Source: a virus (Duplodnaviria; Caudoviricetes). From it: a stretch of DNA of 61,770 bases. Position 1 is the first letter of the stretch. Every line of letters starts with the position of its first letter. Under the pieces are notes generated by a model, which was given only the letters and a program-made list of their open reading frames with translations, searched no databases and was not told the DNA's origin. A program made the position numbers and the translations under genes. The stretch spans positions 1 to 61,770 of IMG/VR virus record IMGVR_UViG_3300023301_000009; one strand, given 5' to 3'. Positions 40,008-61,343 of the stretch are shown here, piece by piece.

Positions 40008-40648
40008 CAGATCCGCAGTCCCTCGTCTGGGTAGTTCGAGGAATTAAACGTCTGGCTCCAATCCAGCTCATCCGCGATCCGATGCTTCTTGAAATACGCG
40101 TAAACCTGCTGGAGCAAATCCGTCGGCCCGCTCACGTACACCACTGGGGAGGATTCCCTTCCCGGCGTCAGCATCAGGTGCTGCACATCTGCTACACTCA
40201 CCGCATCCCGAAATGCTCGCGCGACGTGTTGTGCCGTGAATTCGTTGTAGTTCCCCGGCACGGCCATCAACATCAGCCATTCCCAATCGAATAGCGACAG
40301 CTTCAGCTCGGACCTGAAACCTAAATCCCGCTCCTTCTTGCTCAGCTCGTTGGCATCCGAGTACGCATCCACCACCGTCTTATGCTCCGGCCCAAGCTCT
40401 GAGAACCCAAGCGTCCGCGCGTCATCCACAATCAGCGACGTCTGGTAAACCCCATCGAGCAGCTCCTCAACTTTGCTGTTGAGCATTGCCACCATCCGGT
40501 CCTGCTCCTCCTTGGTGCTGGCCAGATATTCCTTCAACTCCCGTCTCGCCTCTTCCAAATCCAACGCGATCTGTATCAACTCTTTATTACTAAGTGGCAT
40601 TGCTAGTCTCCTGAACTCGTTCGTGTTGTCTGGGGAGGCGCAGCCCAT
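39998..40648 (-). CDS. hypothetical protein (likely start near 40600)
   Basis: SD AGGAG before MPLSNKEL. Confidence 0.65.
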   Translation of the reverse strand: MGCASPDNTNEFRRLAMPLSNKELIQIALDLEEARRELKEYLASTKEEQDRMVAMLNSKVEELLDGVYQTSLIVDDARTLGFSELGPEHKTVVDAYSDANELSKKERDLGFRSELKLSLFDWEWLMLMAVPGNYNEFTAQHVARAFRDAVSVADVQHLMLTPGRESSPVVYVSGPTDLLQQVYAYFKKHRIADELDWSQTFNSSNYPDEGLRIWWD

Positions 40649-40666
40649 TGACCACGCCCCAGTAAA

Positions 40667-40873
40667 TTAAATCATCCCTGCGTCGTGCAGTGGTGACGAC
40701 AGCGTCCCTTCGCACCCTTCACTTTGACACGCGTACTCTCGGGCATCCGGCTCCACCGTGCGCTCCGCCCCGCAATCCGTGCACGTTGCTTCCACCGACC
40801 CGTAATCCTGCATCTGGCGAAACGCCTCCATCACACTCTGCGATTGCTCGTAATCTTTTCGTTCGTCCAACAT
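40667..40873 (-). CDS. small Zn-ribbon protein
   Basis: CTDC..VEPDA..CQSEGC; SD AAGGAG. Confidence 0.65.
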   Translation of the reverse strand: MLDERKDYEQSQSVMEAFRQMQDYGSVEATCTDCGAERTVEPDAREYACQSEGCEGTLSSPLHDAGMI

Positions 40874-41054
40874 CCGCTTCTCCTTACCTGTTTTCCAATT
40901 CAGTGCCCCACTCGCCCCATTGGCTCGTAGTGGCTTCGTACTCGCACACCTGTAGAATTATCTGCTATCAGATTCGTCCTCGGGCATCGTTGCCGTCTTC
41001 AGATGTTTTCTCGTTGCTCAGTACACCCACGCTGAAATTTTGTGGGTGCTCCTT

Positions 41055-41083
41055 AGTATATATAATATTTATGTGTTTGTCAA
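41055..41083 (-). promoter_or_regulatory. strong sigma70-type early promoter P1
   Basis: TTGACA-17 bp-TATACT. Confidence 0.85.
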
Positions 41084-41285
41084 TAAGTATTTAATGATAG
41101 GTAGTCCACCGTTCTCCACCTTGGTTCGCCTTACCTCGTAATGGCTCCGCTTTGCTCCTACTCAGGTGACGTGGATTCTGCTTGGGCTTAGCTCGTACCA
41201 AAGGGTCTTAGTTCTTAAATTTTCTCATCTGTGAAGATAGCAGTAGGGTGGGTTTTGTGGCAGATCTTGGCGGGGGTCCGAACTG

Positions 41286-41489
41286 GACTTGGCCTGAATC
41301 TTTTTCTGGATTTTGCTTGACACCTAGCTTTTTTCATGAGTGAGCTTTGGCTTGGCTTGGGGCCAAATTATTCCTGGATTTTGCTTGACACCTAGCTTTT
41401 TTTATGAGTGAGCTTTGGCTTGACTTGGCACCAAATTATTTCTGGATTTTGCTTGACACCTAGCTTTTTTTATGAATGAGCTTTGGGCT
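41286..41489. repeat. three tandem ~68-bp direct repeats
   Basis: ctggattttgcttgacacctagcttttttYatgaRtgagctttgg at 41306, 41374 and 41442 (period 68). Confidence 0.92.
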
Positions 41490-41945
41490 CGGCTGCCCAT
41501 AAATCCAAAACCAGATTCGGTAGCTGGGCTGGCTTGTCGTCACTGGGGAAAGGACTTGTCGGGGCTGGCTTTGCTTGCCGCATAAAATTCAGATCTTGAA
41601 CTACGCTCGCCAGCGAATCCTAGCATGCCAATCCATACGCCCAAACCGGCTCCCAAGGCTTTCCATGGGTTTTGCTTGACATCATAGTTCTACCCTTTTC
41701 TCGGAGGGGGGGCCTAATTCCTAAACCAAAATCCTCACCTTGACATACACTACTGAACATAGGGGCGGCTCTTAATCATGGCAGCTCCAAATCCCAGTCC
41801 TATGCCCAGCCATGGGGGTCGCCACATTTACGCGTCTAATGGGCTGAGACAAAACACGGGGAATTCCGGCACTACCCCTCGCCAGAAAAATCCATATAAC
41901 GCTTTTACTAGCGCCAAATATCAATCCGTAATTCCAATTCGCGCC

Positions 41946-42033
41946 TAAAAAGTTCCTGACAAACCTACCCAAACCCTATGCACCAAACCTGACCCTAAAA
42001 AAGTTCCTGTCAAACCTACCCAAACGCTATATG
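41946..42033. repeat. two ~35-bp direct repeats
   Basis: taaaaagttcctgWcaaacctacccaaac..ctat at ~41946 and ~41997. Confidence 0.8.
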
Positions 42034-42370
42034 CCAGCACGTATATCTGTGCATTTGTCAGAACCAAGACTGCCAACCAAGTGCCAAAGTCGCTCTAAGT
42101 AGCCACATCGGGATCGTCCTCTATGGTACGTCTCTACCCTTACTCTCTGTACTACTACTTATACACCTCATAGATCGCCTCCGGCTCTCTCTCCCCGCAA
42201 AACCTGGGAAATACCGTGCCTGCCAGTGTGCTCATGGGGGTGTGCTTATACGTTCTCTAGCGCTTTGCCTTGCTAACACTCTCCTTGAATACATGCTTTC
42301 AAATGTTTTCTTGCTCCCCGCCTATTTCAGCTTTCGGGCTGCTCGGTCCTGCTATAGACCCCACCACACC

Positions 42371-42414
42371 AAAAGGGCAGGGAGGACCAAATCAACTGGC
42401 CTTCCGCTGCCCTT
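42371..42414 (-). terminator. intrinsic terminator closing the operon ending at 42469
   Basis: AAGGGCAGCGGAAGGCCA..TGGTCCTCCCTGCCCTT-TT. Confidence 0.6.
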
Positions 42415-42468
42415 ACGTGAGGGTCTATATGCTTTCTTGCTACTCGCTGCTCAAACCGTACCTAATAA

Positions 42469-42681
42469 CTAGATGACCTCAAAATATTTCGCTGCTGTAG
42501 CAAGAAGCATATTGTAATCACCAGCCATCATCTCAGCCAATAACTTATCAACCTCCTCCTTATTGCAACCATACTCTCTGGCCGCACGCTGACATCTGCC
42601 CATTACACTATACGCATTCCCATCCTCTCCAGCCAACTTTACTTCAGGCTTGCCTGCTTCCAAATCACTTAGCGTTTTCAT
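42469..42681 (-). CDS. conserved small phage protein
   Basis: VKLAGEDGNAYSVMG..A..G....EMMAGDY..LL motif common in phages. Confidence 0.7.
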   Translation of the reverse strand: MKTLSDLEAGKPEVKLAGEDGNAYSVMGRCQRAAREYGCNKEEVDKLLAEMMAGDYNMLLATAAKYFEVI

Positions 42682-42961
42682 TCTCTTCTCCTTTCATGAC
42701 TGGGGTATCAAGCCCCTTGGGTAGTTCACTCTCTTCTTTAACCGCTCTCCCTCGCTGGGGAGTTGCGCTCCTGGCTAACTCTTCCGCGAATCTCAGGACT
42801 GTTCTCGCACTCGTCCAGCTACCTTTGCTGAAGCTACCATCTCCCGATTCTGAGTTCTGGTTTCTCCATACGATCTCCGCTAACTCCTGTAGCTCTTTTG
42901 GGTGGGGAGCCAATCGTTTAATCAGCTCCGCCGCCCTCGCTTTGTCTGATAACTTGCACAT
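42665..42961 (-). CDS. hypothetical protein
   Basis: SD GGAGAAGGAG. Confidence 0.6.
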   Translation of the reverse strand: MCKLSDKARAAELIKRLAPHPKELQELAEIVWRNQNSESGDGSFSKGSWTSARTVLRFAEELARSATPQRGRAVKEESELPKGLDTPVMKGEENENAK

Positions 42962-43027
42962 CTCCTTCTCCTACCTGTGGTTTCTGGGGGATAACTCATT
43001 GATTCTTCCGCGAATCTCAGCTTAAAC

Positions 43028-43390
43028 CTACCTCCTCATTTTCAGCACTCCAACCATCGCCCTCCCCTTCCTCATGGAACACCTAAAATCCACTTTCCTT
43101 CCACGGAAACTAGCTGTCCCCTCGACCACTGTCTTCCGCTCGCTCCCGCTCACAGCTTGAGGCACGATGGACGGGTATGCGAGAACCACAGGTGATTTCT
43201 GTGAAATTACGTGCTTACAGAGAACCCATGCCTCGACCTTTTTCTGGGTACTGAGCTTCTTTTCAGTGGTTTTCCGTAGCTCTCTTGGTGGTGGTTCCGG
43301 TGCACTTCTATCACGCGATGTCACAACTACGAGTAACACAACCGCCATTATCGCAAACGTAACCAACACTTTCACACTGTTACTAGGCAT
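43028..43390 (-). CDS. membrane-anchored hypothetical protein
   Basis: N-terminal hydrophobic helix VLVTFAIMAVVLLVVV. Confidence 0.6.
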   Translation of the reverse strand: MPSNSVKVLVTFAIMAVVLLVVVTSRDRSAPEPPPRELRKTTEKKLSTQKKVEAWVLCKHVISQKSPVVLAYPSIVPQAVSGSERKTVVEGTASFRGRKVDFRCSMRKGRAMVGVLKMRR

Positions 43391-43414
43391 CTTCTTACCT
43401 TCTCTTAGGGGGAA

Positions 43415-43915
43415 TTATTCTCCGATAACCGTTAGGTCATTTAGTGCTATGCACGCCTCTCGTCCTACAATCCAGACTACTGCTTTGCCATTTTCTACGC
43501 GTGCCACCCGCCGGGTTTTCGCCACTGCGCTATCCATTCCTTCAGGCAGCTCTCGAATTCGGGTGCCTACTGCGTGAAGCCCGTTCCACAATTCCGCATA
43601 CATTTGCTCATCTTGTAGGGGAGTAACCCAGTTATTTTCATGAATTTTCTGGAGATGCTCTTCTATGGACGTAATTCTTTGGCGGACTAAGCGTAATTCC
43701 TGTAGGACAGCAGTGTTTTCGGCTACTTTTTCTGCATCTATTTGCTCCCCATTATCTGTTATCCAGTCCGTTAACCATGAGTGTAAATCGTCAAACAAAT
43801 GCACACTCAACTCACGTCCATCACCATCTCTACGGAGTAAAACTCCCAATATTTTCTGTAGCATCTCGAATTTTATCTTGTCTTTTCCTGGGATTTTCCT
43901 ACTCATTTCTTGCAC
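43415..43915 (-). CDS. hypothetical protein
   Basis: 166 aa, operon packing. Confidence 0.6.
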   Translation of the reverse strand: MQEMSRKIPGKDKIKFEMLQKILGVLLRRDGDGRELSVHLFDDLHSWLTDWITDNGEQIDAEKVAENTAVLQELRLVRQRITSIEEHLQKIHENNWVTPLQDEQMYAELWNGLHAVGTRIRELPEGMDSAVAKTRRVARVENGKAVVWIVGREACIALNDLTVIGE

Positions 43916-44136
43916 CTTTTTACTGAAAAATTACCAATATCTTGATGGTCTCTAAGCACTTCTCTCAGGGGAAATTCCTGCTCCAAAGCAGTGAAAATCT
44001 CCTTAGATCTTTGGGTGTCGCTGGGGTGTAATCCAGTCCTCATAACCACCCATGTCCTGTTGTGAGAATACGTTATCTCACCAATGATTTTAGCTGCTTT
44101 TCTCATGCGATTTCGCATCACGCCGAGCGTCTCCAT
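43903..44136 (-). CDS. hypothetical protein
   Basis: 77 aa, operon packing. Confidence 0.5.
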   Translation of the reverse strand: METLGVMRNRMRKAAKIIGEITYSHNRTWVVMRTGLHPSDTQRSKEIFTALEQEFPLREVLRDHQDIGNFSVKRCKK

Positions 44137-44316
44137 ATTCCATTCCGTACCATGCGTGGTTAACAGTGTAGCCCGTAGTAGAACTCCGCCTCTTCACATA
44201 CGCCCAAGTCGTTGTGTACATCTTTAAGACGCTGTAAGCGCTTTCTGTTCAAGTAATTCCTATGTCCCTCTGGCCTCCAGTCTCCCGCTGACTTCATACC
44301 AAACCTGCTTTTCGGC

Positions 44317-44628
44317 TTATAGCTTTTCATAACATCCCTTTGAAATGTACTCCGTGAATAACCACTCGGGCTCTCCCCAGTTCGTCACTGTGACTATCTC
44401 CCCTGACAAAACCCGGTCACGCACAAGGCGTAAACCCGTCACCATAAGCACCGCCTTTGACGTGGTGTGCCCTCGTATTTTATCAGCTATCTGCACGTAC
44501 ATCACGGGCTTGCCATAGTGGGTAATCACAGCCTCCTTAACCCCTGCCTGATGCTGCATAAATTCAGTAGAACTCAGTATTAAATTCTCATGTTTCCAAG
44601 GTGCCCATTTCGTGTTTTTCTTCCTCAT
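44317..44628 (-). CDS. hypothetical protein with two Phd/YefM-like repeats
   Basis: Start MRKKN after leader-motif SD GAGGA; VITHYGKPV and VTVTNWGEPE. Confidence 0.5.
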   Translation of the reverse strand: MRKKNTKWAPWKHENLILSSTEFMQHQAGVKEAVITHYGKPVMYVQIADKIRGHTTSKAVLMVTGLRLVRDRVLSGEIVTVTNWGEPEWLFTEYISKGCYEKL

Positions 44629-44662
44629 AATTTCCTCGGCCTTAGTGGCGTCTTCGGTTTTC

Positions 44663-44983
44663 TTAATTATCGAATTTGTACTGCATACTATACTCACCAT
44701 CCTCCTTGGCTATATCGCTCAGCTTAATCATCATCCTCCCTGCGTTCGGCATGGAATTATCCCATTGGGATTCTGATACCTTCAGTAGCATCATGTGCGG
44801 CCCTTCGACCTTGTACTCCTTCATCATGTGTGGCTCTTCGATCTTGTATAAAAAGCCGATTCCATCGGGCATGAACGCTGCTCCTTCTGGCTCGGCTGGG
44901 ACCGCATACTGCTGGGGTAGGTTTCTTGCGATTTTCGCTACTGTCTCGTTCTGTAACGTCTTTTTTGAGAATGTGATTTTCAA
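44663..44983 (-). CDS. hypothetical protein
   Basis: SD GGAGAAGGA, TTG start. Confidence 0.55.
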   Translation of the reverse strand: MKITFSKKTLQNETVAKIARNLPQQYAVPAEPEGAAFMPDGIGFLYKIEEPHMMKEYKVEGPHMMLLKVSESQWDNSMPNAGRMMIKLSDIAKEDGEYSMQYKFDN

Positions 44984-45035
44984 CGTCCTTCTCCGCTTGT
45001 GTGAATGTGAGTCTCAATGTCACCAACCATCTCGC

Positions 45036-45332
45036 TCATATTGCGAGGACTTCGTAGGCGGCTGTGCCTTCCTCGCATGTGAGTACCACCTCGACCGAGG
45101 CTCCTGTTCCGCTCCTGCGGCAAAGGTGAATTGCCTCTTTCGCCGTTCCGTTGAGTGCGCCGTGGATCATGTTGAGAATCATCGCAACTTCCGCTTTGTC
45201 ATCGAAGTGTCGTACGGCGTAGGGCGCGAAACTTTCTGGGACGTCGAACATCGTAACCCTGATTCGAGCGTTGACGAAGGACTTGAGAATGGCGAGAGTT
45301 TCATTGTCTGTGATTTTCTTCATTTTGTTCAT
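45036..45332 (-). CDS. early hypothetical protein
   Basis: First gene after promoter P2; leader motif plus SD. Confidence 0.7.
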   Translation of the reverse strand: MNKMKKITDNETLAILKSFVNARIRVTMFDVPESFAPYAVRHFDDKAEVAMILNMIHGALNGTAKEAIHLCRRSGTGASVEVVLTCEEGTAAYEVLAI

Positions 45333-45411
45333 TTTGTTTCCTCGGGCTTGGTTGCCGTCTTAGGTTTTATGGGTGAAGTGCTTACCCGCAATGTTTTTTG
45401 GGGTATGCCTC

Positions 45412-45440
45412 AGTATATATGATTTTTATGTGTTTGTCAA
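45412..45440 (-). promoter_or_regulatory. strong sigma70-type early promoter P2
   Basis: TTGACA-17 bp-TATACT. Confidence 0.85.
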
Positions 45441-45480
45441 GTATAAATGGGGAATAGTGTTCCAACGACTCTCAGTCTGA

Positions 45481-45984
45481 TCAACCCCAAATCATCTCGC
45501 TCACTGCTTTGCCTTCCTTGGACACCACCAGCACATCGTAACCTGCCTCCTTCTCAATCTCGGCAAACCCTGCCTCGACCAATTCGTCATCTCCCGCTGG
45601 GCAAAACCACACTCTCTCACTTCTACTCCTATGAAACTCCCAGAGCCTTTCAGCGGCCCTAGCGCTTAACGCGTTTCCTGCGCTTAGCATCTCCTCGTCA
45701 GTTGCATACTTCTCTTGTGTTCTCAAATACGACATTGCCGTACTCCAGCTAAGCACAAAATACAGCCCCACTTCGCTCCCATCAAACCGCAACTGGTAAC
45801 TACACACATGCGCTGATTGCTCCACTCGGGCAGATTCTTTAAGCAAGTCAAAAATCGCACCCATGCCCTGCGACCCTCTGACTGTACTTATGTTAAACTC
45901 ATTCTCCAGTGCTGATACCACAATATCCTGTGATTGCATTACTACATCAATAAGCGCGAATAATCTTTTCGTATGGTCTTTCAT
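45481..45984 (-). CDS. hypothetical protein
   Basis: 167 aa; leader motif with SD GAGGA. Confidence 0.7.
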   Translation of the reverse strand: MKDHTKRLFALIDVVMQSQDIVVSALENEFNISTVRGSQGMGAIFDLLKESARVEQSAHVCSYQLRFDGSEVGLYFVLSWSTAMSYLRTQEKYATDEEMLSAGNALSARAAERLWEFHRSRSERVWFCPAGDDELVEAGFAEIEKEAGYDVLVVSKEGKAVSEMIWG

Positions 45985-46123
45985 AGTGTCCTCGGGCTTG
46001 TGGCCGTCTTAGGTTTCTGTGCATACCTTACGCGAATGTAAAGCATGATGTTTCAAGGTGTTTGTAAAGAACTATTACGGAGCCGGTTACGGTACTGGCT
46101 CTTCGCTGTGGTGGCAACGCCAA

Positions 46124-46363
46124 TCACTTTACTCTTTTCATTCCTTTGGTTTGAATCTTAATGCTAAGATTCTGGCCAAGCGGTTCAAGACTTAGCTCGC
46201 ACTCCCCAGCCTCCACTGCCTGAAGCACAGCGCCATATAATGTCAGGGCCTTCTTAACTAATTCAGTCGCATCTTTTGAACTCGACTTACGAACTAGTTC
46301 TCCAACCTTGCGCACCATATCGCCGTCAACCGTCACGACAAGCTGGGGGGTATCATCACTCAC
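46124..46363 (-). CDS. ribbon-helix-helix-like DNA-binding protein
   Basis: LVVTVD..MVRKV.EL....DATELVKKALTLY pattern. Confidence 0.5.
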   Translation of the reverse strand: MSDDTPQLVVTVDGDMVRKVGELVRKSSSKDATELVKKALTLYGAVLQAVEAGECELSLEPLGQNLSIKIQTKGMKRVK

Positions 46364-46744
46364 TTACTGTATGTCACCTTGTGTCTGAGCCTCTTCATAG
46401 AACTTAGCAGCACCAGCTCGATCTCGCTCCGCGAAGGCGCGCTGAATTACTTGCTTCTGCGTCATCGTAGCTACGTGGCCCAAATCATTCACTACCTCCA
46501 CCATCTTCATGGAGTTGATGAACTCACCTTCCGCGAGATGATCATTGACTAGGCACCCCATAGCCTCCTCCTCCAGCGCAGCCCGACACATCTCAGCCTC
46601 CATCTTAACTACCTCAGCGACGAACTCTTGCTTTGCTCGCTCGCTCGCTTCTTCAGTCGTTTCTAAACTCACAATCACCAACGTATCTCGCAAACTCATA
46701 ACTACTACTCCAGTCACTACTTGGGTGCGGGGTAGGCCCACCAT
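46364..46744 (-). CDS. hypothetical protein
   Basis: Operon packing. Confidence 0.55.
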   Translation of the reverse strand: MVGLPRTQVVTGVVVMSLRDTLVIVSLETTEEASERAKQEFVAEVVKMEAEMCRAALEEEAMGCLVNDHLAEGEFINSMKMVEVVNDLGHVATMTQKQVIQRAFAERDRAGAAKFYEEAQTQGDIQ

Positions 46745-46761
46745 GGACCTACCCCATTTTA

Positions 46762-47082
46762 TTACTCGGCTACTTTATCCTCTTCGTTCATCTGAGCTTC
46801 CATCTCCTCCGTGCTCATGCCAGTCGCTTTCGGGTTAAGATCCTCCACTACGGTCTGTGTCACCGTCTGAGTTTTTACGCCCAACTCTTTCATCACACGG
46901 ACAACCAAGTACGTGCCTTCCTCATCACATTCTTTGATAAACCGTTCCGCCTCTTTCGATGAATTGCTTTCAAACTCTCGTTCGACGAACACGTACTCTA
47001 CGCGTGCAAAGGGTTCTCCCTCTTCCGCTGCGAACTTGTTATCGACTTCTTTCATTACTGCAACATCTCCGAATCTACTCAT
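46762..47082 (-). CDS. acidic hypothetical protein
   Basis: 106 aa, overlaps the upstream stop. Confidence 0.6.
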   Translation of the reverse strand: MSRFGDVAVMKEVDNKFAAEEGEPFARVEYVFVEREFESNSSKEAERFIKECDEEGTYLVVRVMKELGVKTQTVTQTVVEDLNPKATGMSTEEMEAQMNEEDKVAE

Positions 47083-47287
47083 GCTGGGTATCCTTGGTTT
47101 CGCAGTTTTTCGTCTTCACGACGAACTGCTGTTTATGTAATCCACACCGCAGGATTTTTACCTGTCGGTTTCCTTCACCCTCGGGAGGCGTGTAGCCTGC
47201 CCTTAGATACTTTTCGCGAAGCTCATCGGCTTCCTCAAAATCTTGTGTGTATAACTTTGACCTCCATACCTTGTGTGCCATCGCCAT
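47075..47287 (-). CDS. hypothetical protein
   Basis: SD AGGAG. Confidence 0.6.
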   Translation of the reverse strand: MAMAHKVWRSKLYTQDFEEADELREKYLRAGYTPPEGEGNRQVKILRCGLHKQQFVVKTKNCETKDTQHE

Positions 47288-47317
47288 CTCCTACGCTTGA
47301 GTTACTTGTTACTTGGC

Positions 47318-48682
47318 TCAGTGCATGAGTGATGCAATGATCTCAGCACTGATCATCTCAATCTTGCTCGTATGCGACCGCGCTCCATCATCCCCGTAAA
47401 CGTGTGCGACCTCATGAATCATCACACGTACCAAGTCCACGAAACTTGCGACAACACCGCGCGCTATCTCAATGGAAAAGTCCGCTCCTCGGAATCGCCC
47501 CAACGTGCGCTCGTCGAAGAAATCCACGATATTCACATGCTCCAAAATATCGGCTCCCCAATCCCCGGCTTCGAGGCATGGGTTTATCAGGTCACACACC
47601 TCCCTCAAATTCTCACGCTCGGCTGGAGTAAGATCCTTATGCGAGTACAGCTTCTTCGCTTCCTTCGCGGCTTGTTCCCTTTGCTCTTCAAAGGTTCCTT
47701 TGCGCACCACGATGAGCTCACGCATTGCCTTTGATACAACGACTCCTGTCTTCCCGAAATGCTCCAGCTCCTTTGACTGGCTCATGTTCTCAACGGGTAT
47801 AGCATCTACGCCGTGCTTCTCCTCGAACTGGGCAACCACCTTACTAACCAAGGCTTTGCTATCCTTTAGTGCGTACACCTCGGATACCTCCAACGCGTTT
47901 CCTTCCTCGATCATGCCGAGTATCTCTTCAGTGAAATCTTGGTCGCTAAACTCGAACATCGCCTGCGTCATCCTATTCAGCTCCCATTTAAGATCCCATT
48001 CACTCATCATGTGGCGATCCCGGTTCAACTCCATTCCGCTTAAATCGTAACCGTACCGCATGCTATCCCGTTGCTGCACGAATACACCCTTATGATACAG
48101 CTTCCCCTTGTATCGGTCTTGGAGCAGCACCCTGTTATCTGAATACGCACCCGGCTTGACCGACTGCTTTGGGTCGTAATGCACATCGGTGAACAGGAAC
48201 CTCGTTTGCATCTCCTCCCACTGCTCCTGCTCGACCCCTTCCACAATCACTTGGAATACACCGCGAGACTTCTTCAGCTTCCTCGTTTTCACAGCCAGCA
48301 CATGCGTACCATACGTGTCGGACCACGCGATTTCTGGATACCAAGCCATATCATCATTGTAGACCTTGACCTTGTATCCAGCCATTCTCGACAGCGTGAG
48401 CAACGCCATAGGCAAGCCTTCCCCGAATTGGCCAATCGCATCCTTTCTCTTACGCGAACCCGACGTGCCCATCAGCAGCGCGTTCAGCTCCACCTGCACC
48501 CCAGAATTCTCAACCACCAACACCTTATTGTGCTCGTGATAGACAACTCGCATCGCACCTCTTGCTCGTGAGGCTGATGCTAGTTCTGCGTCTCGTGCGT
48601 TGCTGATAATCTCTCGCACAGCTTCCCACAATCCCCAACTTTCTTGGTAACTCACATCTAAACTTAACTCGAACTTTGCCAT
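47318..48682 (-). CDS. GHKL/HATPase_c-type ATPase with C-terminal HExxH domain
   Basis: REIISNARD, NSG, LLMGTSGS, IGQFGEGL; C-terminal MIHEVAH; start MAKFELSL after SD GAGGAG. Confidence 0.75.
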   Translation of the reverse strand: MAKFELSLDVSYQESWGLWEAVREIISNARDAELASASRARGAMRVVYHEHNKVLVVENSGVQVELNALLMGTSGSRKRKDAIGQFGEGLPMALLTLSRMAGYKVKVYNDDMAWYPEIAWSDTYGTHVLAVKTRKLKKSRGVFQVIVEGVEQEQWEEMQTRFLFTDVHYDPKQSVKPGAYSDNRVLLQDRYKGKLYHKGVFVQQRDSMRYGYDLSGMELNRDRHMMSEWDLKWELNRMTQAMFEFSDQDFTEEILGMIEEGNALEVSEVYALKDSKALVSKVVAQFEEKHGVDAIPVENMSQSKELEHFGKTGVVVSKAMRELIVVRKGTFEEQREQAAKEAKKLYSHKDLTPAERENLREVCDLINPCLEAGDWGADILEHVNIVDFFDERTLGRFRGADFSIEIARGVVASFVDLVRVMIHEVAHVYGDDGARSHTSKIEMISAEIIASLMH

Positions 48683-48752
48683 GCTGCTCTCCTCGGGCGT
48701 AATCGCCGTCTTCAGTTTATTGGCTCTCGCCATTTGTGGGATAATCCCACAG

Positions 48753-48792
48753 GGCTGGGGGAGGAGTCGAACCTTCCCTACACCATCCAGCC
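48753..48792 (-). ncRNA. tRNA-like mini-element 1 (acceptor-like stem plus T-arm, no anticodon arm)
   Basis: GGCTG-GATGGTGTA-GGGAAGG-TTCGACT-CCTCCCC-CAGCC. Confidence 0.55.
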
Positions 48793-48810
48793 AACTAGCA
48801 CACGCTAGAC

Positions 48811-49203
48811 TCACATTGACATATCTTCATCCTGCAACTCGCTGAGCGTTCGGCGGTTTCGCTGTAGCACCGTCACGCCTCGAACCTTCGTCTGCATCTC
48901 TTCATACGCATCGGAATCGGAAGCGACGCGTACATGAGACACCACTGCATCCCTATCGAAGTTCCACGCGTACCTAACCATTGCGTAGGACGTTTCCTCA
49001 TGGGCTGCTGTCGGGTCTACATCGTACACCTCTGCTACTGCGTCTTCTCGCGCACCTATCATCTGCACCATCCCTATCGCTGCAACCATCGCGTCCTCTA
49101 AATCATCAAAAGACACATGCAGTTCCGTGGTGCCTTTGGACGTGTGCACGTAGAACAGGGGCTTGTTCGCATCGTAATCTGACTTACTCGTGAACTTAAT
49201 CAT
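48811..49203 (-). CDS. hypothetical protein
   Basis: Leader motif plus GAGGAAACAAAATG. Confidence 0.7.
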   Translation of the reverse strand: MIKFTSKSDYDANKPLFYVHTSKGTTELHVSFDDLEDAMVAAIGMVQMIGAREDAVAEVYDVDPTAAHEETSYAMVRYAWNFDRDAVVSHVRVASDSDAYEEMQTKVRGVTVLQRNRRTLSELQDEDMSM

Positions 49204-49234
49204 TTTGTTTCCTCGGGCTTTCGCCGTCTTCAGT

Positions 49235-49279
49235 TTACGCCTCGCTACCGGCTAAGGCGGGGTTTACTCTTACTCGCAT
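49235..49279 (-). CDS. possible 14-aa upstream ORF (MRVRVNPALAGSEA)
   Basis: Strong SD GAGGAGAGG; stop lies just before the leader motif. Confidence 0.35.
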   Translation of the reverse strand: MRVRVNPALAGSEA

Positions 49280-49331
49280 ACCTCTCCTCTTATGAGTGAA
49301 GGTCGCCGGATTTTCTCGGGTTGCCCCGAAG

Positions 49332-49376
49332 CCGCTGGAAGGAATCGAACCTTGCCTTGAACACCAGTAGCAGCGG
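49332..49376 (-). ncRNA. tRNA-like mini-element 2
   Basis: CCGCTG-CTACTGGTGTTCAAGG-CAAGG-TTCGATT-CCTTC-CAGCGG. Confidence 0.55.
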
Positions 49377-49382
49377 TGCTGC

Positions 49383-50186
49383 TTAGATGTCTTCTGGTTT
49401 CAGGTGGCGGGGTGAGCTTCCGCCGTACCATTTGTCATGAGCCATCTTCTTCATCCCTTGCACTTGGTCATGTGCCGGAAGGTGTGGAACTCCCGAGCCT
49501 GCCCCAACGATCTTGCGGAGGGTTTGCCATGTGCTTTGGCAAACATGCGCCTTGAGCCGGTGCTCGTCGTAGCGCCAATCGGGCTTTACGATTTTCTTTC
49601 TGGTGAACGTCTGTGAGTTGCCGTTCCCATCCGTCCCCTTGAATCTAATTTTTGAACTCACGTCGCTGGGTTCGACCACTGGGATTCTTGCGAAGGCGAT
49701 TGGAATTTTAGGGTCAACGATTACAACCTCTAAAATGTGAGCCTCGTACAAACCGCTGTATGCTTTCATCCGCTGCTTCCAATCCTTGCGTAGCCACTGG
49801 AGTACGACCCACCTACTGCCAACTAGTAAAGTATGGTCGCTCGCGAGGGTCTTGAGACGTTCCCTGTGGATTCCCGCTTTCACCTTATTGTCTTTGCGAG
49901 TTGCGCTACCTTTCTTGCCGCCCACCTTTCTCGTTGTTGTGGCCGCCATCGCATGTTGTTCATCGGGCGTCAGCATTTGGAACTTGCCCCACAACTCGTC
50001 GTGTTGCTCGGGAGTGATAAGGTTTGACGCCGCGAGCCACTTCAGCGCTTTGTCGTACTTGACTTCTGCTGCGTGAGTAATCTTTGCATCTCGCTCGCTC
50101 TCGGTTTGCCACCCTGTTGTGTGGTCGGAAGGTCCAAAGCAGCTTAGGTCTCTAAGAAGTCCTCGTCCAAAATTGATTTGAGCCAT
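49383..50186 (-). CDS. basic early hypothetical protein
   Basis: 267 aa; first gene after promoter P3; leader motif. Confidence 0.7.
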   Translation of the reverse strand: MAQINFGRGLLRDLSCFGPSDHTTGWQTESERDAKITHAAEVKYDKALKWLAASNLITPEQHDELWGKFQMLTPDEQHAMAATTTRKVGGKKGSATRKDNKVKAGIHRERLKTLASDHTLLVGSRWVVLQWLRKDWKQRMKAYSGLYEAHILEVVIVDPKIPIAFARIPVVEPSDVSSKIRFKGTDGNGNSQTFTRKKIVKPDWRYDEHRLKAHVCQSTWQTLRKIVGAGSGVPHLPAHDQVQGMKKMAHDKWYGGSSPRHLKPEDI

Positions 50187-50272
50187 TTTGTTTCCTCGGG
50201 CTTGATTGCCGTCTTCGGTCTAAGTTAATTACTGGTTGTTCAACACCCGCAGTAAAATTTGGGGTGTGCCTT

Positions 50273-50301
50273 AGTATATATGATGTTTGTGTGTTTGTCA
50301 A
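50273..50301 (-). promoter_or_regulatory. strong sigma70-type early promoter P3
   Basis: TTGACA-17 bp-TATACT. Confidence 0.85.
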
Positions 50302-50329
50302 GTATAAATGAGAGATAGGTGTGCGAGGG

Positions 50330-50518
50330 TTATTTGGTCGTACCTCCGTACTTTGCCTCATCTACTTCTGCGCGGTTCACAGGATACTGTCGCGGAGCTT
50401 TTACCCCAAGCCGCACTTGGCTCCCGCGTAACTCCACGACCATGACCGTTGCTATCTCCTTACCTTGTTCATCCCTGATCACTAGCTCCTCGCCTTCCTT
50501 GCGCGATATCGTAAGCAT
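50330..50518 (-). CDS. csrA: carbon storage regulator CsrA/RsmA homologue
   Basis: MLTISRKEGEELVI..VMVVELRGSQVRLGVKAP..PVNRAEV matches the CsrA consensus; SD GAGGAG. Confidence 0.9.
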   Translation of the reverse strand: MLTISRKEGEELVIRDEQGKEIATVMVVELRGSQVRLGVKAPRQYPVNRAEVDEAKYGGTTK

Positions 50519-50522
50519 CCCT

Positions 50523-51014
50523 TTACTCCTCAATATTCATGTGAGTGAAACCTAAACTCTGAATCTCAAAAACCGGCAGCACTTCGCTGGGGGATATCCG
50601 AACCATGATTCTTGGTGGCTTGTCTATCTCCGCGTACGCCTTCGCAGTGGTGCCCATCACTATCTGCTTGTCGTCCTCGTAGAACCCCTCGTCTTCCATC
50701 ACGTCCTCAACCGGCTTACGCAGGTTTACGATATCCGGCCTGCTTGCAAACCAGATCATGCCTTTCGGATATTTGTATAGCCCTGTTTTCTTATACTTGA
50801 ACTGCATGTATTTCGGCCTTGGATATATCGCTACGATATCAACCCTAAGTGGTACACTCAATGGCTTCGGGGGCCGATGCGGTCGTATGAGCTTTGCAAA
50901 CTTCTTCTCCCAATCACGCATCACCTTTGGCTTGAATGCCCCACCTTTACCAAATCGTACAGATTGCTTTGCCTTTGGCTTAATCGGCCCAACTACGAAT
51001 TCAATGATATCCAT
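50523..51014 (-). CDS. rusA: RusA-like Holliday junction resolvase
   Basis: PKAKQSVR..PLRVDI..YPRPK..RPDIVNLRKPVEDVM..FYEDDKQIV. Confidence 0.8.
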   Translation of the reverse strand: MDIIEFVVGPIKPKAKQSVRFGKGGAFKPKVMRDWEKKFAKLIRPHRPPKPLSVPLRVDIVAIYPRPKYMQFKYKKTGLYKYPKGMIWFASRPDIVNLRKPVEDVMEDEGFYEDDKQIVMGTTAKAYAEIDKPPRIMVRISPSEVLPVFEIQSLGFTHMNIEE

Positions 51015-51015
51015 A

Positions 51016-52563
51016 TCAGTTACCTCGGTCGTACCACGGTCGCTCGGCTAACACTTTTTCTGGCTCATCATCCATTTCAATGACCCCATCTTCGACGTCG
51101 CTATCCTCTAGCGCCTCTCGTTTTTTCTGGTCATCAAAATTCTCATACTCATCTGCGTCATACCTATGGTCCTTACCTGTCTCCGATGGTTTCGTTCCCC
51201 CGCCTTTCCCGTAGCCACCAAATAGCTGGGAAATAATACCATTCCCTTTTGCTTTAATCTCAATCGAATCCTGCGGGTTCAGTATTTCCCGAACTTTTTG
51301 ACAAACATGCACAAACCGGTCTATCTCTTTTGATATATCTGGGTTGACCAGCCCACCCTTAGCCTTCTCCGCTACCAACGCAAACTGCAATCGCTCGTAC
51401 GTCTGCTCGACCACCGCGTTGAGCGCCTTCTCGATACTGAATTTCCCTGCGTGCTCACCCTGTGCCTTTAGCGCAGCTTTCTTAAATGGTATGGAACACG
51501 TCGAGTCCTTTTTGTAGAAGGGACATTTATCTGCGATGTAGCACGTATTGCAATGGTACCCGAACTCGGCCGTCTGGTCCTTCCCTCTTACCTCGGGCCT
51601 TTGGACGGCCTTAATTTCTTTGCGCTCCCCTGCTGCAATCACCGAAGCATCGTTTCGGTGCATCGGGGTTATGACTAGGTTCTGGTACTCAACCCACATT
51701 GACGCGTTGAACTGGTTCACTGCGCCGGAGCTGTCATCCATAAGTGCCGCGTAATCAATACTGTGTTTCTCACACCAGTCTTCATAGTTCGCGCGCACGC
51801 TCTTGTGATCGGGGTCTTTTGTCTTTAGCTCATCACCACTGAATACATACGTCACACCATATTGTGCCCCCATCATCCACGATGTCGAATCAACTGAGTA
51901 GAACGTAAGATTGCGGAACACGTCCTTGTTCGTCATCGCGAACCCGTGAACCTTCCTTCCCGCTTTGTCAGATATCTGTAACATCTCGATGTACTCCGAC
52001 TTCTCCATACCACCTTGTATGCCGATGTACTCATACTTCTCGACCAACTTCGTCCACTCCCTTTTGCGCGTGGTGAGCTGTTCCATTGGGCTGTCATATC
52101 CGTAGTACCCCTCGTAAGACGTGTGGTATACCGGCATGGGAGTTAGTCCCTCCTCCTCCATCAACGCCCGCCACTCCTCAATTTTTTCCACACCTACAAT
52201 GCTGTCAATATCCAGTTCGACGTACACGTCAAAGTAGTGCCCAAACTTTTTAAGCCATGAGATGTATTCTAAAATATACACTTCCGGCTCGACATAACCC
52301 TTTGGCTTCTCCTTCGCTACTGAACTGCCTGCTATATGCTTGCGGTGGAACAGCGACTTGCCGTGAAAACTGAAGTACGTGTGCGCACCAGAATCCAGCA
52401 TCACAAACGCGCCCGCCTCCTTAGCCTTCTCTAAAATCGTGGTCGCCTTCGAGTCGCTCATCTTGCGAAAGTAGAAGTACGAGCACAACAAATTTTCGGC
52501 ACCGACCGACAGTAGCTCGTCCATCGAGCGCTCTTTCTCAGCTCCGGCAAAACAAATTCTCAT
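51016..52563 (-). CDS. TGT/DpdA-like 7-deazaguanine transglycosylase with C-terminal Cys4 domain
   Basis: LLCSYFY, MLDSGAHT, ELDI, MPVYH, IGIQGG, VHGFAMT, YSVDSTSW..GAQYG; then CNTC..CP..C. Confidence 0.75.
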   Translation of the reverse strand: MRICFAGAEKERSMDELLSVGAENLLCSYFYFRKMSDSKATTILEKAKEAGAFVMLDSGAHTYFSFHGKSLFHRKHIAGSSVAKEKPKGYVEPEVYILEYISWLKKFGHYFDVYVELDIDSIVGVEKIEEWRALMEEEGLTPMPVYHTSYEGYYGYDSPMEQLTTRKREWTKLVEKYEYIGIQGGMEKSEYIEMLQISDKAGRKVHGFAMTNKDVFRNLTFYSVDSTSWMMGAQYGVTYVFSGDELKTKDPDHKSVRANYEDWCEKHSIDYAALMDDSSGAVNQFNASMWVEYQNLVITPMHRNDASVIAAGERKEIKAVQRPEVRGKDQTAEFGYHCNTCYIADKCPFYKKDSTCSIPFKKAALKAQGEHAGKFSIEKALNAVVEQTYERLQFALVAEKAKGGLVNPDISKEIDRFVHVCQKVREILNPQDSIEIKAKGNGIISQLFGGYGKGGGTKPSETGKDHRYDADEYENFDDQKKREALEDSDVEDGVIEMDDEPEKVLAERPWYDRGN

Positions 52564-52599
52564 TCCGTGAGTCCTCTTGTGCAGTGTGCGTTAACTTGC

Positions 52600-57406: not shown

Positions 57407-57439
57407 GATGTTTTCCAGGTGTTTGTAAAGAACTACTGC

Positions 57440-58328: not shown

Positions 58329-58366
58329 TTGCTGCCTCCACGGTCTTGAGTCTAGGTCTGTTTCAC

Positions 58367-60603: not shown

Positions 60604-61051
60604 CTGTCCTTGCCAGTTGTTCCGGCGTCCACTCAAAATAATCTGCGTAGCAATTCGGAGTTTCGTGAATCCTCACTCGCGTCACCAGCAGTTGCGTTTG
60701 CTCAAGCTGTAGCTTGGCTACTCCAAATAACTCCTTCGCGATATTCTCCGCAGTGGGGTTGCCACTCAGCATTCGGTAGTGCTTCCACTTGTTCCTCTTG
60801 CACAGCTCTATCAACTCTCGGTCTTCGGTGTTGAGTATCACGCCGTGGTCCCAGCACTCGTCAATCCAACCCCCGATCTTCTCCTTGAGAATACTGAAGT
60901 CTATGACACGCCCAAGGCTGTCCAGCCCACTCATGTCTTGTACAAAAATTTCCGCAGCATACCTGTGCCCGTGCAGATTTTTACACTTGCTCTCGTGGCG
61001 CATCACACGATGAGCAGCATCGAACTCGATTCTCCGCATGATCTCAAACAT
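60593..61051 (-). CDS. queD: 6-carboxy-5,6,7,8-tetrahydropterin synthase
   Basis: FDAAHRV..CKNLHGHRY..G.VIDF..WDH..NPTAENIA..ETPNC. Confidence 0.95.
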   Translation of the reverse strand: MFEIMRRIEFDAAHRVMRHESKCKNLHGHRYAAEIFVQDMSGLDSLGRVIDFSILKEKIGGWIDECWDHGVILNTEDRELIELCKRNKWKHYRMLSGNPTAENIAKELFGVAKLQLEQTQLLVTRVRIHETPNCYADYFEWTPEQLARTDDE

Positions 61052-61343
61052 GGATACGCTCCCAGATCTCCTGCTCACTCTCAACGCGAAAGCGGAGGCC
61101 CGTTGTTTCCATACCTTGCACTTGCTCTTGGGTAAACTCAGGAATAAATACTAACTTTATCCCATTGTCTTCTCCCATACGTCGGGCGATAGCACACGCT
61201 TTTGTCATCTGATTTACTGCGCCTGCCCCAATGGCAACAATGGTTACTGTCTTTCCCTCTTGGAAATTCATAACTAGCGCTCCCGCTGCTCCGGGTGCGT
61301 GTGTGTCGCCTGCGACTTTAAGTTCTATGCTTTGTTTTGCCAT
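61044..61343 (-). CDS. spoVS: stage V sporulation protein S homologue (Alba-like fold)
   Basis: LKVA....AAGAL..AIGAGAVNQMTKACAIAR..G..L..IP.F....G.E.T. Confidence 0.88.
   Translation of the reverse strand: MAKQSIELKVAGDTHAPGAAGALVMNFQEGKTVTIVAIGAGAVNQMTKACAIARRMGEDNGIKLVFIPEFTQEQVQGMETTGLRFRVESEQEIWERIHV

What the first reader, a model, noticed from the sequence alone, without database searches (positions are those of the whole stretch)
40977..50518. Seven-copy covarying RNA hairpin on early-gene ribosome-binding sites, next to a phage-encoded CsrA
Seen: AAGAC-GGC-N4-6-GCC-CGAGGA occurs at 40977, 45339, 45989, 48690, 49210 and 50193 with variable loops (AACGAT, AACCAA, CACAA, GATTAC, GAAA, AATCAA). 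The copy at 44633-44654 reads AAGAC-GCC-ACTAA-GGC-CGAGGA, a compensatory G-C to C-G swap that supports a real RNA stem. In six of seven copies the terminal GAGGA is the SD, 4-7 nt before the ATG. A copy lies ~50-60 nt downstream of the -10 box of each of the three early promoters. The flanking AAGA/GAGG could form tandem G.A pairs. A clear csrA lies immediately upstream of the region. Known: CsrA binds GGA motifs overlapping SD sequences. Inference: a phage translational regulon (operator for CsrA, SpoVS or another phage protein), or a nut/boxB-like antitermination signal. The link to CsrA is hypothesis only.
Basis: partly seen in the sequence, partly recalled or inferred. Interest (0 to 1): 0.8.

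Follow-up and report, generated by a model that had tools for sequence, protein, structure and literature searches.

The report
Repeated RNA hairpin on phage ribosome-binding sites
A metagenomic phage carries seven near-identical copies of a small RNA hairpin built onto the ribosome-binding sites of a block of unknown genes; it looks like a shared switch for their translation, and its shape fits a kink-turn.

Summary
AAGAC-GSC-N4-6-GSC-CGAGGA occurs 7 times, all on the minus (coding) strand, against 0 in 100 shuffles. A covariance model scores the copies at 41.6-51.9 bits; the next window hit scores 10.5. In 6 of 7 copies GAGGA lies 4-7 nt before an ATG. Three copies lie 51-58 nt after near-identical sigma-70-type promoters. 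A csrA gene lies directly upstream.

Loops differ in all copies while stem and flanks are invariant, so selection acts on the flanks. The formal covariation is a single event.

No related sequence carries the motif, so comparative tests were impossible.

My reading is a protein-recognised translational operator laid over the SD. The extended consensus, CY|KAA|GA|C-hairpin-C|GA|GG, fits the published kink-turn rules, with the SD as the non-bulged strand. This resembles the archaeal L7Ae autoregulatory leader. That fit is a hypothesis: the C helix has only 2 bp, and no L7Ae gene is in the window. CsrA is a poor fit and a nut site is unlikely.

The parts
50193..50218 (-). Motif copy 1 (extended core CC|GAA|GA|C-GGC-AATCAA-GCC-C|GA|GGA). 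Its GAGGA is the SD of ORF 50186-49383 (267 aa, pI 9.8), ATG 6 nt later. It lies 58 nt after the -10 of P1.
   Evidence: (51.1 bits)
49210..49233 (-). Motif copy 2 (loop GAAA). SD of ORF 49203-48811 (130 aa), ATG 6 nt later. It sits at the end of a 179-nt structured intergenic region.
   Evidence: (48.3 bits)
48690..48715 (-). Motif copy 3 (loop GATTAC; a 4th G-C pair is possible). SD of ORF 48682-47318 (454 aa, weak GHKL-ATPase-like hit), ATG 7 nt later.
   Evidence: homologues start at this Met; 46.6 bits
45989..46013 (-). Motif copy 4 (loop CACAA). SD of ORF 45984-45481 (167 aa), ATG 4 nt later. A 21-codon upstream ORF (46046-45981) reads through it and ends in an ATGA overlap with the gene's start codon.
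   Evidence: (45.5 bits)
45339..45364 (-). Motif copy 5 (loop AACCAA). SD of ORF 45332-45036 (98 aa), ATG 6 nt later. It lies 51 nt after the -10 of P2.
   Evidence: (51.9 bits)
44633..44657 (-). Motif copy 6, with the middle stem pair swapped (GCC-ACTAA-GGC). SD of ORF 44628-44317 (103 aa, pI 9.5), ATG 4 nt later. No promoter nearby.
   Evidence: (45.7 bits)
40977..41002 (-). Motif copy 7 (loop AACGAT; a 4th A-U pair is possible), 56 nt after the -10 of P3. No ATG/GTG/TTG at SD distance; the next ORF (40873-40667) has its own SD about 100 nt downstream.
   Evidence: (41.6 bits)
50273..50301 (-). Promoter P1, TTGACA-17-TATACT (11 of 12).
45412..45440 (-). Promoter P2, same type (11 of 12).
41055..41083 (-). 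Promoter P3, same type (11 of 12).
50243..50267 (-). 5'-proximal leader hairpin after P1 (CACCC...GGGTG). The counterparts are at about 45383-45405 after P2 (TACCC...GGGTA) and about 41023-41049 after P3 (CACCCAC...GTGGGTG), with changes on both sides of the stem.
50330..50518 (-). csrA (62 aa), the last gene before P1. It is a candidate trans factor by position only.
61044..61343 (-). SpoVS-family gene (99 aa; Alba-superfamily fold according to PMC11621453). It is a candidate nucleic-acid binder by family only.

Best explanation
The seven copies are a cis-acting RNA operator laid over the ribosome-binding site of the first gene after each promoter or long intergenic spacer, in a 9.5-kb block of small genes without known families.

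Shown:
- The copies lie on the coding strand and on SDs.
- Flanks and stem are invariant, while the loop is free in sequence and length.

Inferred:
- A sequence- and shape-specific RNA-binding protein recognises the closed flanks of the hairpin. The protein is unidentified and could be a host or a phage product.
- Because the 3' flank is the SD itself, binding blocks 30S access and so sets, most likely shuts off, translation of this gene set together.

Structural model (inferred, about 0.25-0.3 on its own):
- The element folds as a hairpin-capped kink-turn.
- In the columns of alignment A2, C5-G29 and Y6-G28 form a 2-bp C helix.
- K7-A8-A9 is the 3-nt bulge.
- G10.A27 and A11.G26 are the tandem sheared pairs.
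- C12.C25 is the 3b.3n position.
- GSC/GSC plus the loop is the capped NC helix.
- Folding therefore uses G26-A27-G28-G29, the SD, and competes with 16S pairing.
- An L7Ae-family protein of the host (YbxF/YlxQ type) would be the obvious binder.
For: Chance is excluded: 7 matches against 0 in 100 shuffles, and 41.6-51.9 bits against 10.5 for the next window hit.

RNA level:
- 7 of 7 copies are on the transcribed strand.
- Loop length varies from 4 to 6 nt, which a double-stranded DNA site for a dimer would not tolerate.
- One copy has both sides of the middle pair swapped.

Selection rather than recent copying or gene conversion: the 4-6 loop bases differ in all 7 copies, while 17 of 35 aligned columns are invariant on both sides of the loop.

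Link to translation: GAGGA is 4-7 nt before ATG in 6 of 7 copies. About 70 other gene starts in the window have ordinary SDs without the element.

The hairpin alone is weak, -3.1 to -5.7 kcal/mol, so it is unlikely to work as a bare stabiliser.

Kink-turn fit:
- The published definition is a 3-nt bulge followed on its 3' side by G.A and A.G, with a Watson-Crick C helix on the 5' side and an NC helix beyond (PMC5061560, sections 6, 7 and 13 read). The sequence meets it in 7 of 7 copies.
- The only variation in the core is at -1b (C or U, both pair with G28), at L1 (G or U) and in one NC pair.
- 3b = C is reported to favour folding in Mg2+.

Precedent:
- The Sulfolobus acidocaldarius l7ae leader has a kink-turn with a single C-helix pair next to its SD. 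Binding was seen from 10 nM L7Ae, and the authors propose that it masks the SD (PMC5539422, passages).
- L7Ae makes no significant contact with the C helix (PMC3884654, passages).
- A bacterial YbxF binds a kink-turn with U.G and C-G pairs in its C helix (PMC9723947, passages).
Against: - No relative carries the motif, so there is no independent covariation. Within the 7 copies there is one double change, which 71 of 500 shuffles reach.
- The copy at 40977 keeps the whole consensus but serves no start codon, so SD occlusion cannot be its only role.
- The C helix has only 2 bp, followed by A.A in 6 of 7 copies. YbxF is reported to need a stable C helix and to bind weakly, Kd 270 nM.
- A generic hairpin-capped kink-turn descriptor hits the minus strand 29 times, against 26.7 +/- 4.9 in shuffles. 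Fitting the descriptor is cheap, and an SD supplies one of the two GA steps for free.
- No L7Ae-family gene (PF01248) is in the window: 0 matches at E <= 10. The window is about half of the genome.
- The host is unknown, so whether it has a YbxF/YlxQ homologue is unknown.
- No expression data exist.
Confidence: 0.4

Rival explanations
1. A constitutive translation-initiation cassette. A small hairpin placed directly 5' of the SD insulates the SD from upstream sequence, or protects a processed 5' end, and gives strong expression. No trans-acting factor is involved.
For: The element sits only where a gene follows a promoter or a long spacer: 128-179 nt in five cases, 34 nt at 44633, and a 1595-nt non-coding gap at 40977.

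A distant relative (L129; its homologue of the 454-aa protein is 37% identical) has its own series of hairpins abutting SDs, with different stems and GNRA loops, for example before the ORFs at 653, 3990, 7568 and 8179.

8 of 69 distinct upstream regions of that homologue fold with z < -2.

The P1-P3 leaders also carry a 5' hairpin of the kind known to stabilise mRNAs (that role is recalled knowledge).
Against: A purely structural hairpin should vary in stem and flanks, as it does in L129. Here 6 of 7 stems are identical and both flanks are invariant.

The hairpin is weak, -3.1 to -5.7 kcal/mol.

The SD it presents pairs over only 4-5 bases with the usual 16S tail (my reading of the sequence). 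It never drifts to a stronger SD, although other genes in the window use GGAG or AGGAG.

The median z is about 0, so the architecture is not general in the gene family.
Confidence: 0.2
2. An endonuclease target. A phage or host RNase recognises the hairpin with its flanks and cuts in or next to the SD. This would inactivate, or process, these transcripts at a set time, as T4 RegB does with early mRNAs.
For: T4 RegB cuts within GGAG of early mRNAs. With S1, its site is GGA followed by an A-rich stretch (PMC1702504, abstract). 3 of 7 copies read GGA-AACAAAA.

Two copies lie just downstream of tRNA-like minihelices and stacked hairpins, which look like processing signals.
Against: No RegB-family match (PF10715) in the window.

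The A-rich tail is absent in 3-4 of 7 copies.

RegB needs no hairpin or 5' flank according to the abstract seen.

Nothing here shows a cleavage.
Confidence: 0.13
3. An operator for the phage CsrA. CsrA binds the GGA of the SD and represses these genes.
For: csrA lies directly upstream of P1. It aligns with E. coli CsrA over residues 1-53.

Every copy has a GGA in its SD.
Against: By recalled knowledge, CsrA prefers GGA in a hairpin loop and usually needs two sites per RNA. Here the GGA is outside the loop, and I found no consistent second GGA on reading.

The invariant AAGAC and stem are not explained.

CsrA-family clusters are common in viruses, and no other virus contig carries the motif.
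Confidence: 0.1
4. A DNA-level recombination or regulatory cassette (as in the PeSL elements of T4-type phages), or a nut-like antitermination signal.
For: PeSLs are sigma-70-type promoters with a stem-loop, an SD and a start codon that flank ORFans and recombine (PMC2839356, passages). P1-P3 with their leaders look alike.

One assembly contig of the source run departs from the window at 46074, beside a degenerate promoter copy.
Against: 4 of 7 copies have no such promoter. Gene conversion would not skip the loop, and the loop length varies.

PeSL stem-loops sit within or between the promoter boxes and act as terminators, not on the SD.

For nut: the loop is the least conserved part, and on reading I saw no boxA-like sequence (no formal search was made).
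Confidence: 0.07

Closest known systems
Archaeal L7Ae autoregulatory kink-turn in the l7ae 5' UTR (S. acidocaldarius; PMC5539422, passages read)
   Same: A simple kink-turn lies next to the SD in an mRNA leader: a 3-nt bulge, two G.A pairs and a short capped stem. The C helix is very short (1 bp there, 2 bp here). Protein binding is proposed to mask the SD.
   Different: There it is a single autoregulatory site in an archaeon with a known binder. Here there are seven sites on unrelated genes of a bacterial virus, the SD is on the non-bulged strand, no binder is known, and folding is untested.
T4 RegA and RegB control of early mRNAs (PMC3014915 seen in a search listing only; PMC1702504 abstract read)
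   Same: A set of phage early-type genes shares a signal at the ribosome-binding site, which lets one factor switch them off together.
   Different: RegA and RegB sites are short single-stranded sequences without a conserved hairpin. No RegA- or RegB-family match is in the window.
PeSL promoter-stem-loop cassettes of T4-type phages (PMC2839356, passages; PMC4122927, abstract)
   Same: Repeated near-consensus sigma-70-type promoters with an AT-rich upstream part, a stem-loop, an SD and a start codon, placed in front of ORFans.
   Different: The PeSL stem-loop overlaps the promoter and terminates transcription. Here the conserved hairpin sits on the SD, and it also occurs without a promoter in 4 of 7 copies.
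CsrA/RsmA binding sites
   Same: A GGA overlaps the SD, and a CsrA-family gene is present.
   Different: The GGA is not in the hairpin loop, there is one site per leader, and the conserved 5' flank and stem have no role in CsrA recognition (recalled knowledge of the family).

Membership tests
Kink-turn (simple, standard; definition from PMC5061560) | A three-nucleotide bulge followed immediately on its 3' side by tandem G.A and A.G pairs | tested here: met
   At sequence level only: K7-A8-A9, then G10-A11, opposite G26-A27 in 7 of 7 copies.
Kink-turn (simple, standard; definition from PMC5061560) | [quoted passage not shown] | tested here: inconclusive
   Only 2 pairs: C5-G29 in 7 of 7 copies; Y6-G28 as C-G in 4 and U-G in 3. 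The next position is A.A in 6 of 7 copies. A natural L7Ae site with 1 pair exists.
Kink-turn (simple, standard; definition from PMC5061560) | An NC helix continuing beyond the G.A pairs; the 3b.3n position is often non-Watson-Crick | tested here: met
   C12.C25, then 3 standard pairs in 7 of 7 copies, capped by a 4-6-nt loop. 3b = C is a fold-competent class.
Kink-turn (simple, standard; definition from PMC5061560) | A kinked three-dimensional geometry with A-minor contacts, and folding with metal ions or protein | not testable with these tools
   Needs FRET, gel mobility, probing or a solved structure.
Kink-turn (simple, standard; definition from PMC5061560) | Bound by an L7Ae-family or other kink-turn protein | not testable with these tools
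   No PF01248 match in the window. The host is unknown and about half of the genome is missing.
CsrA/RsmA target site | A GGA presented in a hairpin loop, usually two or more GGA sites per RNA (recalled) | tested here: not met
   The GGA lies 3' of the hairpin in 7 of 7 copies. No consistent second GGA was found on reading (by eye, not a formal count).
Lambda-type nut site (boxA + boxB) | A boxB hairpin with a conserved loop read by the N protein, and a boxA nearby (recalled) | tested here: not met
   The loop differs in sequence in 7 of 7 copies and in length from 4 to 6 nt. boxA was not formally searched.
PeSL cassette (PMC2839356) | A sigma-70-type early promoter joined to a stem-loop that acts as terminator, in front of ORFans | tested here: not met
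   A promoter is present at 3 of 7 copies. The hairpin is on the SD, not in the promoter. It has no U tract.
T4 RegB target | GGA(G) with an A-rich 3' stretch, and a RegB nuclease | tested here: not met
   The A-rich tail is present in 3 of 7 copies. PF10715 gives 0 matches.
Any Rfam family | A score at the family's gathering threshold | tested here: not met
   0 matches in the whole window at gathering scores. Only 2 chance-level matches at E <= 5 in 40500-51000, neither on a copy.

The most novel reading that the evidence does not exclude
The element is a natural kink-turn translational regulon. Seven kink-turns whose non-bulged strand is the Shine-Dalgarno sequence would let one kink-turn-binding protein switch a block of phage genes. 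The binder could be a host L7Ae homologue of the YbxF/YlxQ type, whose cellular role in bacteria is largely unknown, or a new phage protein. I know of no kink-turn operator described in a bacterial virus. One search listed 12 of the 22 papers that hold at least three of the terms kink-turn, bacteriophage, Shine-Dalgarno and translational operator, and none of the 12 listed describes one.
Probability: 0.25. Interest if true: 0.8.

Novelty: new variant of a known kind. Interest (0 to 1): 0.55.

Why it matters
If the reading is right, this phage co-regulates a set of host-takeover-type genes after transcription through one compact 26-nt RNA module. That module is small enough to test and to reuse as a genetic part.

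If the kink-turn model holds, it would give bacterial L7Ae homologues, or a new phage protein, a concrete regulatory target. It would also extend a mechanism so far documented in archaea and used in synthetic biology to natural phage gene control.

If instead the element is only an optimised ribosome-binding cassette, it is a minor curiosity.

Tried and rejected
Relatives:
- megablast of the region against phage records: no match.
- Protein-pattern scans of viral contigs with the 454-aa protein, the terminase and CsrA found no relative.
- tblastn hits in phage records were under 60% identical in all cases; the best listed were 30% for the 454-aa protein and 35% for the terminase.
- The metagenome scan gave one identical contig (L127, 100% identical over window 47106-58682) and 79 distant loci at 30-40% identity. 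The covariance model found nothing above 16.7 bits in those 79 loci.

Motif scans:
- 119 virus contigs each carried one strict hit, and the 7 loci I inspected had theirs in what read as coding sequence.
- The more specific pattern gave 0 hits in viral contigs.
- It gave 29 scattered single hits in genome contigs. By my reading of the 16 nt shown after each hit, none is followed by an ATG at SD distance.
- A promoter-pattern scan found 49 contigs that appear unrelated and are mostly AT-rich, and I saw no copy of the motif in the 105 nt shown after each promoter.

Access to the rest of the genome:
- The record behind L127 is not held.
- A region request was malformed and no handle exists.
- A 91,837-nt contig with the same protein exists but could not be read.

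Expression: no RNA holder is listed. The only holder is a DNA run that may be the source sample, and its contigs show no variants.

Candidate binders:
- Pfam and PHROGs gave no confident family for the motif-served proteins. The only hits were a sub-threshold HATPase_c hit (E 0.0062) and two function-unknown PHROGs for the 454-aa protein.
- The protein atlas gave nothing for the 98-aa protein.
- Single-sequence AlphaFold2 models of the 103-aa and 267-aa proteins had mean pLDDT 38.8 and 43.4, too poor to search with, so no fold search was run.

Host:
- The median protein pI of 5.5 argues against an acid-proteome (salt-in) host such as a haloarchaeon.
- The promoters, the SDs and CsrA point to a bacterium. 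The phylum was not resolved.

Other points:
- L129's SD-abutting hairpins did not fit the kink-turn pattern when I read them by eye.
- Supplementary files of the papers were not consulted. Those of PMC5539422 (leader alignments) might bear on how short a C helix L7Ae tolerates.

Full report
WHAT THE WINDOW IS. The window is a linear IMG/VR virus record of 61,770 bases, estimated about 50% complete. All long ORFs lie on the minus strand. In the direction of transcription the order is:
- a SpoVS-family gene;
- a 7-deazaguanine cluster (QueD-like, radical-SAM, FolE) and sugar transferases;
- a DpdA/TGT-like gene, then RusA and CsrA;
- a 9.5-kb block of small genes, none with a confident family assignment;
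- a 1.3-kb non-coding stretch;
- the terminase and structural genes.

The only sequencing run that holds the region is a DNA run from a hypersaline lake metagenome, which may be the source sample. The median predicted pI of 78 proteins is 5.5, with 26% above 8. That is not the acid proteome of salt-in organisms. Together with the sigma-70-type promoters, the regular SDs and CsrA, it points to a bacterial host of unknown phylum.

THE OBSERVATION. No match occurred in 100 dinucleotide shuffles. Loops and the GCC...GGC variant at 44633 are as described.

A covariance model of the 7 copies (A2, R1) scores them at 41.6-51.9 bits, and the next window hit scores 10.5. So there are exactly seven copies and no degenerate ones.

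In 6 of 7 copies GAGGA is 4-7 nt before an ATG that opens an ORF. For the 454-aa protein, 21 homologues align from the same Met. This supports that start over the 498-aa reading of the ORF, which begins at a GTG at 48814 (the matching public protein P0001 is also 498 aa).

The seventh copy (40977) keeps the whole consensus but has no ATG/GTG/TTG at SD distance.

Three promoters match 11 of 12 consensus positions. Their -10 boxes end 58, 51 and 56 nt before a copy. Their leaders share a 5'-proximal hairpin with changes on both sides of the stem.

IS IT AN RNA STRUCTURE? Arguments for:
- All copies are on the transcribed strand.
- The loop varies in length (4-6 nt) and differs in sequence in all 7 copies, while 17 of 35 aligned columns on both sides of it are invariant. 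Recent duplication or gene conversion would not produce this pattern.
- One copy changes both sides of the middle pair.

Formally this is thin. All 35 of 35 pair cells are standard, but there is one double change, and 71 of 500 shuffles reach it. The bare hairpin is weak, -3.1 to -5.7 kcal/mol.

COMPARATIVE EVIDENCE: NONE AVAILABLE.
- No phage record is similar at DNA level.
- Protein-based scans of viral contigs found no relative.
- The best non-self homologue of the 454-aa protein is 45% identical.
- A metagenome scan returned one identical contig (L127) and 79 loci at 30-40% identity. None has a model hit above 16.7 bits.
- A more specific pattern hit 0 virus contigs and 29 scattered bacterial contigs. 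By my reading, none of the 29 is followed by an ATG at SD distance.

One distant relative is still informative. L129 has its own series of hairpins abutting SDs, with varied stems and GNRA loops, so a hairpin next to the SD recurs. It is not general, though: 8 of 69 distinct upstream regions of the homologue fold with z < -2, and the median z is about 0.

WHAT IT MOST LIKELY IS. Invariant flanks and stem, a free loop, and a position on the SD of the first gene after each promoter or long spacer point to recognition by a trans-acting factor at the ribosome-binding site. That makes it a translational operator shared by six genes, with a seventh site in the leader of the late-side operon.

Extending the alignment upstream shows more conservation: AAAC-Y-K before AAGAC. 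The whole core reads C5 Y6 | K7 A8 A9 | G10 A11 | C12 | GSC-loop-GSC | C25 | G26 A27 | G28 G29.

This matches the published definition of a simple kink-turn (PMC5061560, sections 6, 7 and 13):
- a Watson-Crick C helix, here C5-G29 and Y6-G28;
- a 3-nt bulge;
- tandem G.A and A.G pairs;
- a 3b.3n position that is often non-canonical, here C.C, where 3b = C is reported to favour folding in Mg2+;
- an NC helix, here capped by the loop.

All variation in the core falls where a kink-turn tolerates it: C or U at -1b, G or U at L1, and one swapped NC pair. In this fold the non-bulged strand G26-A27-G28-G29 is the SD, so folding or protein binding would compete with 16S pairing.

A close precedent exists. 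The S. acidocaldarius l7ae leader has a kink-turn with a 3-nt bulge, two G.A pairs, a 4-bp stem and a single C-helix pair beside its SD. Binding was seen from 10 nM L7Ae, and the authors propose that binding masks the SD (PMC5539422, passages). L7Ae makes no significant contact with the C helix (PMC3884654). Bacterial YbxF binds kink-turns, including one in OLE RNA with U.G and C-G pairs in the C helix (PMC9723947).

WHY THE KINK-TURN REMAINS A HYPOTHESIS.
- The C helix has 2 pairs, followed by A.A in 6 of 7 copies.
- YbxF is reported to need a stable C helix and to bind weakly.
- A generic descriptor of a hairpin-capped kink-turn is met 29 times on the minus strand, against 26.7 +/- 4.9 in shuffles. 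The fit is cheap, the more so because any SD supplies one GA step.
- No L7Ae-family match is in the window. RegA and RegB families are absent too.
- The two candidate proteins I modelled gave unusable structures.
- The copy at 40977 has no start codon to occlude.

I put the protein-recognised operator at 0.4 and the kink-turn geometry at about 0.25-0.3.

- CsrA is real and aligns with E. coli CsrA over residues 1-53. But its usual target, a GGA in a hairpin loop with two sites per RNA (recalled), is not what is conserved here. CsrA-family clusters are also common among viruses, while the motif is unique.
- SpoVS belongs to the Alba superfamily by profile comparison (PMC11621453, passages). It is a fair candidate nucleic-acid binder, but nothing links it to the motif.
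- A nut-like role is unlikely, because the loop is the least conserved part.

RIVALS. The rivals, with my confidence in each, are:
- a factor-free initiation cassette (0.2);
- a nuclease target of the RegB kind (0.13);
- a CsrA operator (0.1);
- a DNA-level cassette of the PeSL kind, or a nut site (0.07).

The PeSL comparison (PMC2839356) fits the three promoter-leader cassettes well, and may explain how they spread through this ORFan block. It does not explain the four copies without such a promoter, or the loop pattern.

VERDICT. This is a real, statistically unambiguous seven-copy RNA-level element on ribosome-binding sites. It is most likely a shared translational operator, with a specific and testable kink-turn model. 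Its binder, its direction of control and its conservation beyond this one phage are unknown.

Noticed in passing
window, minus strand: motif starts at 950, 11631, 23285, 35550, 35818, 41083, 45440, 46068, 50301, 57429; plus strand 51298, 59844: A second repeated motif, TT(G/T)ACAAACA(C). It has 12 exact copies, 10 of them on the coding strand, and 22 copies with up to 1 mismatch, against 7.9 +/- 2.6 in shuffles. Only three copies (P1-P3) have a -10 box 17 nt downstream. Three others (57429, 46068, 11631) share ...TTTACAAACAC..AAAC(C)ATCATG. In two of those the ATG is the start codon of an ORF with no clear SD (57406; 11608 has at most a weak AGGT). It may be a factor-binding site or an SD-independent initiation signal. 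A distant relative (L190) has CTGACAAACAC before its homologue.
   Followed up: partly
window 49332-49376 (-) and 48753-48792 (-): Two tRNA-like minihelices: a 6-bp acceptor-like stem enclosing a T-arm-like hairpin with GGTTCGAYTCC. Each is followed by further hairpins, and each lies in the intergenic region just upstream of motif copies 49210 and 48690. ARAGORN and Rfam do not call them. They are possible RNase P or RNase Z type processing signals.
   Followed up: partly
window 45981-46046 (-): A 21-codon upstream ORF starts at the ATG of a TTTACAAACAC...CATCATG element. It reads through motif copy 45989 and ends in an ATGA overlap with the start of gene 45984. This is possible translational coupling through the hairpin.
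   Followed up: no
window 51016-52563, 58609-59154, 59920-60636, 60593-61084 (-): A gene set for 7-deazaguanine DNA modification: DpdA/TGT-like (phrog_887), GTP cyclohydrolase I, a weak radical-SAM hit and a QueD-like PTPS. Sugar and nucleotidyl transferases follow at 53595-56813.
   Followed up: no
window 41100-42469: A 1.3-kb stretch without ORFs, holding three to four direct repeats of about 60 nt (...gctaggtgtcaagcaaaatccag...) and a duplicated gggtaggtttg(a/t)caggaactttttt. It lies between the ORFan block and promoter P3 and may be an origin or a packaging region.
   Followed up: no
window 46074: One assembly contig of the only DNA run that holds the region departs from the window sequence at 46074, next to the degenerate promoter-like copy. 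This is consistent with a recombinant variant at a repeated cassette.
   Followed up: no
L129 (metagenome locus), ORF starts 653, 2580, 3990, 7568, 8179; repeats near 2947, 4793, 8890, 10904: A distantly related phage has its own family of SD-abutting hairpins with covarying stems and GNRA loops. It also has a four-copy AGTTTTTGAAAAACA motif upstream of genes.
   Followed up: partly
window 47318-48682 (-): The 454-aa protein has a weak GHKL-ATPase-like N-terminal hit and a conserved C-terminal HEVAH...H motif in the family alignment (metalloprotease-like). It is widespread in phages (phrog_6077; 106 phage records by tblastn). The ORF can also be read as 498 aa from a GTG at 48814 (a 498-aa public protein, P0001, matches it at 100%). 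That reading would run through the tRNA-like element and motif copy 48690.
   Followed up: partly
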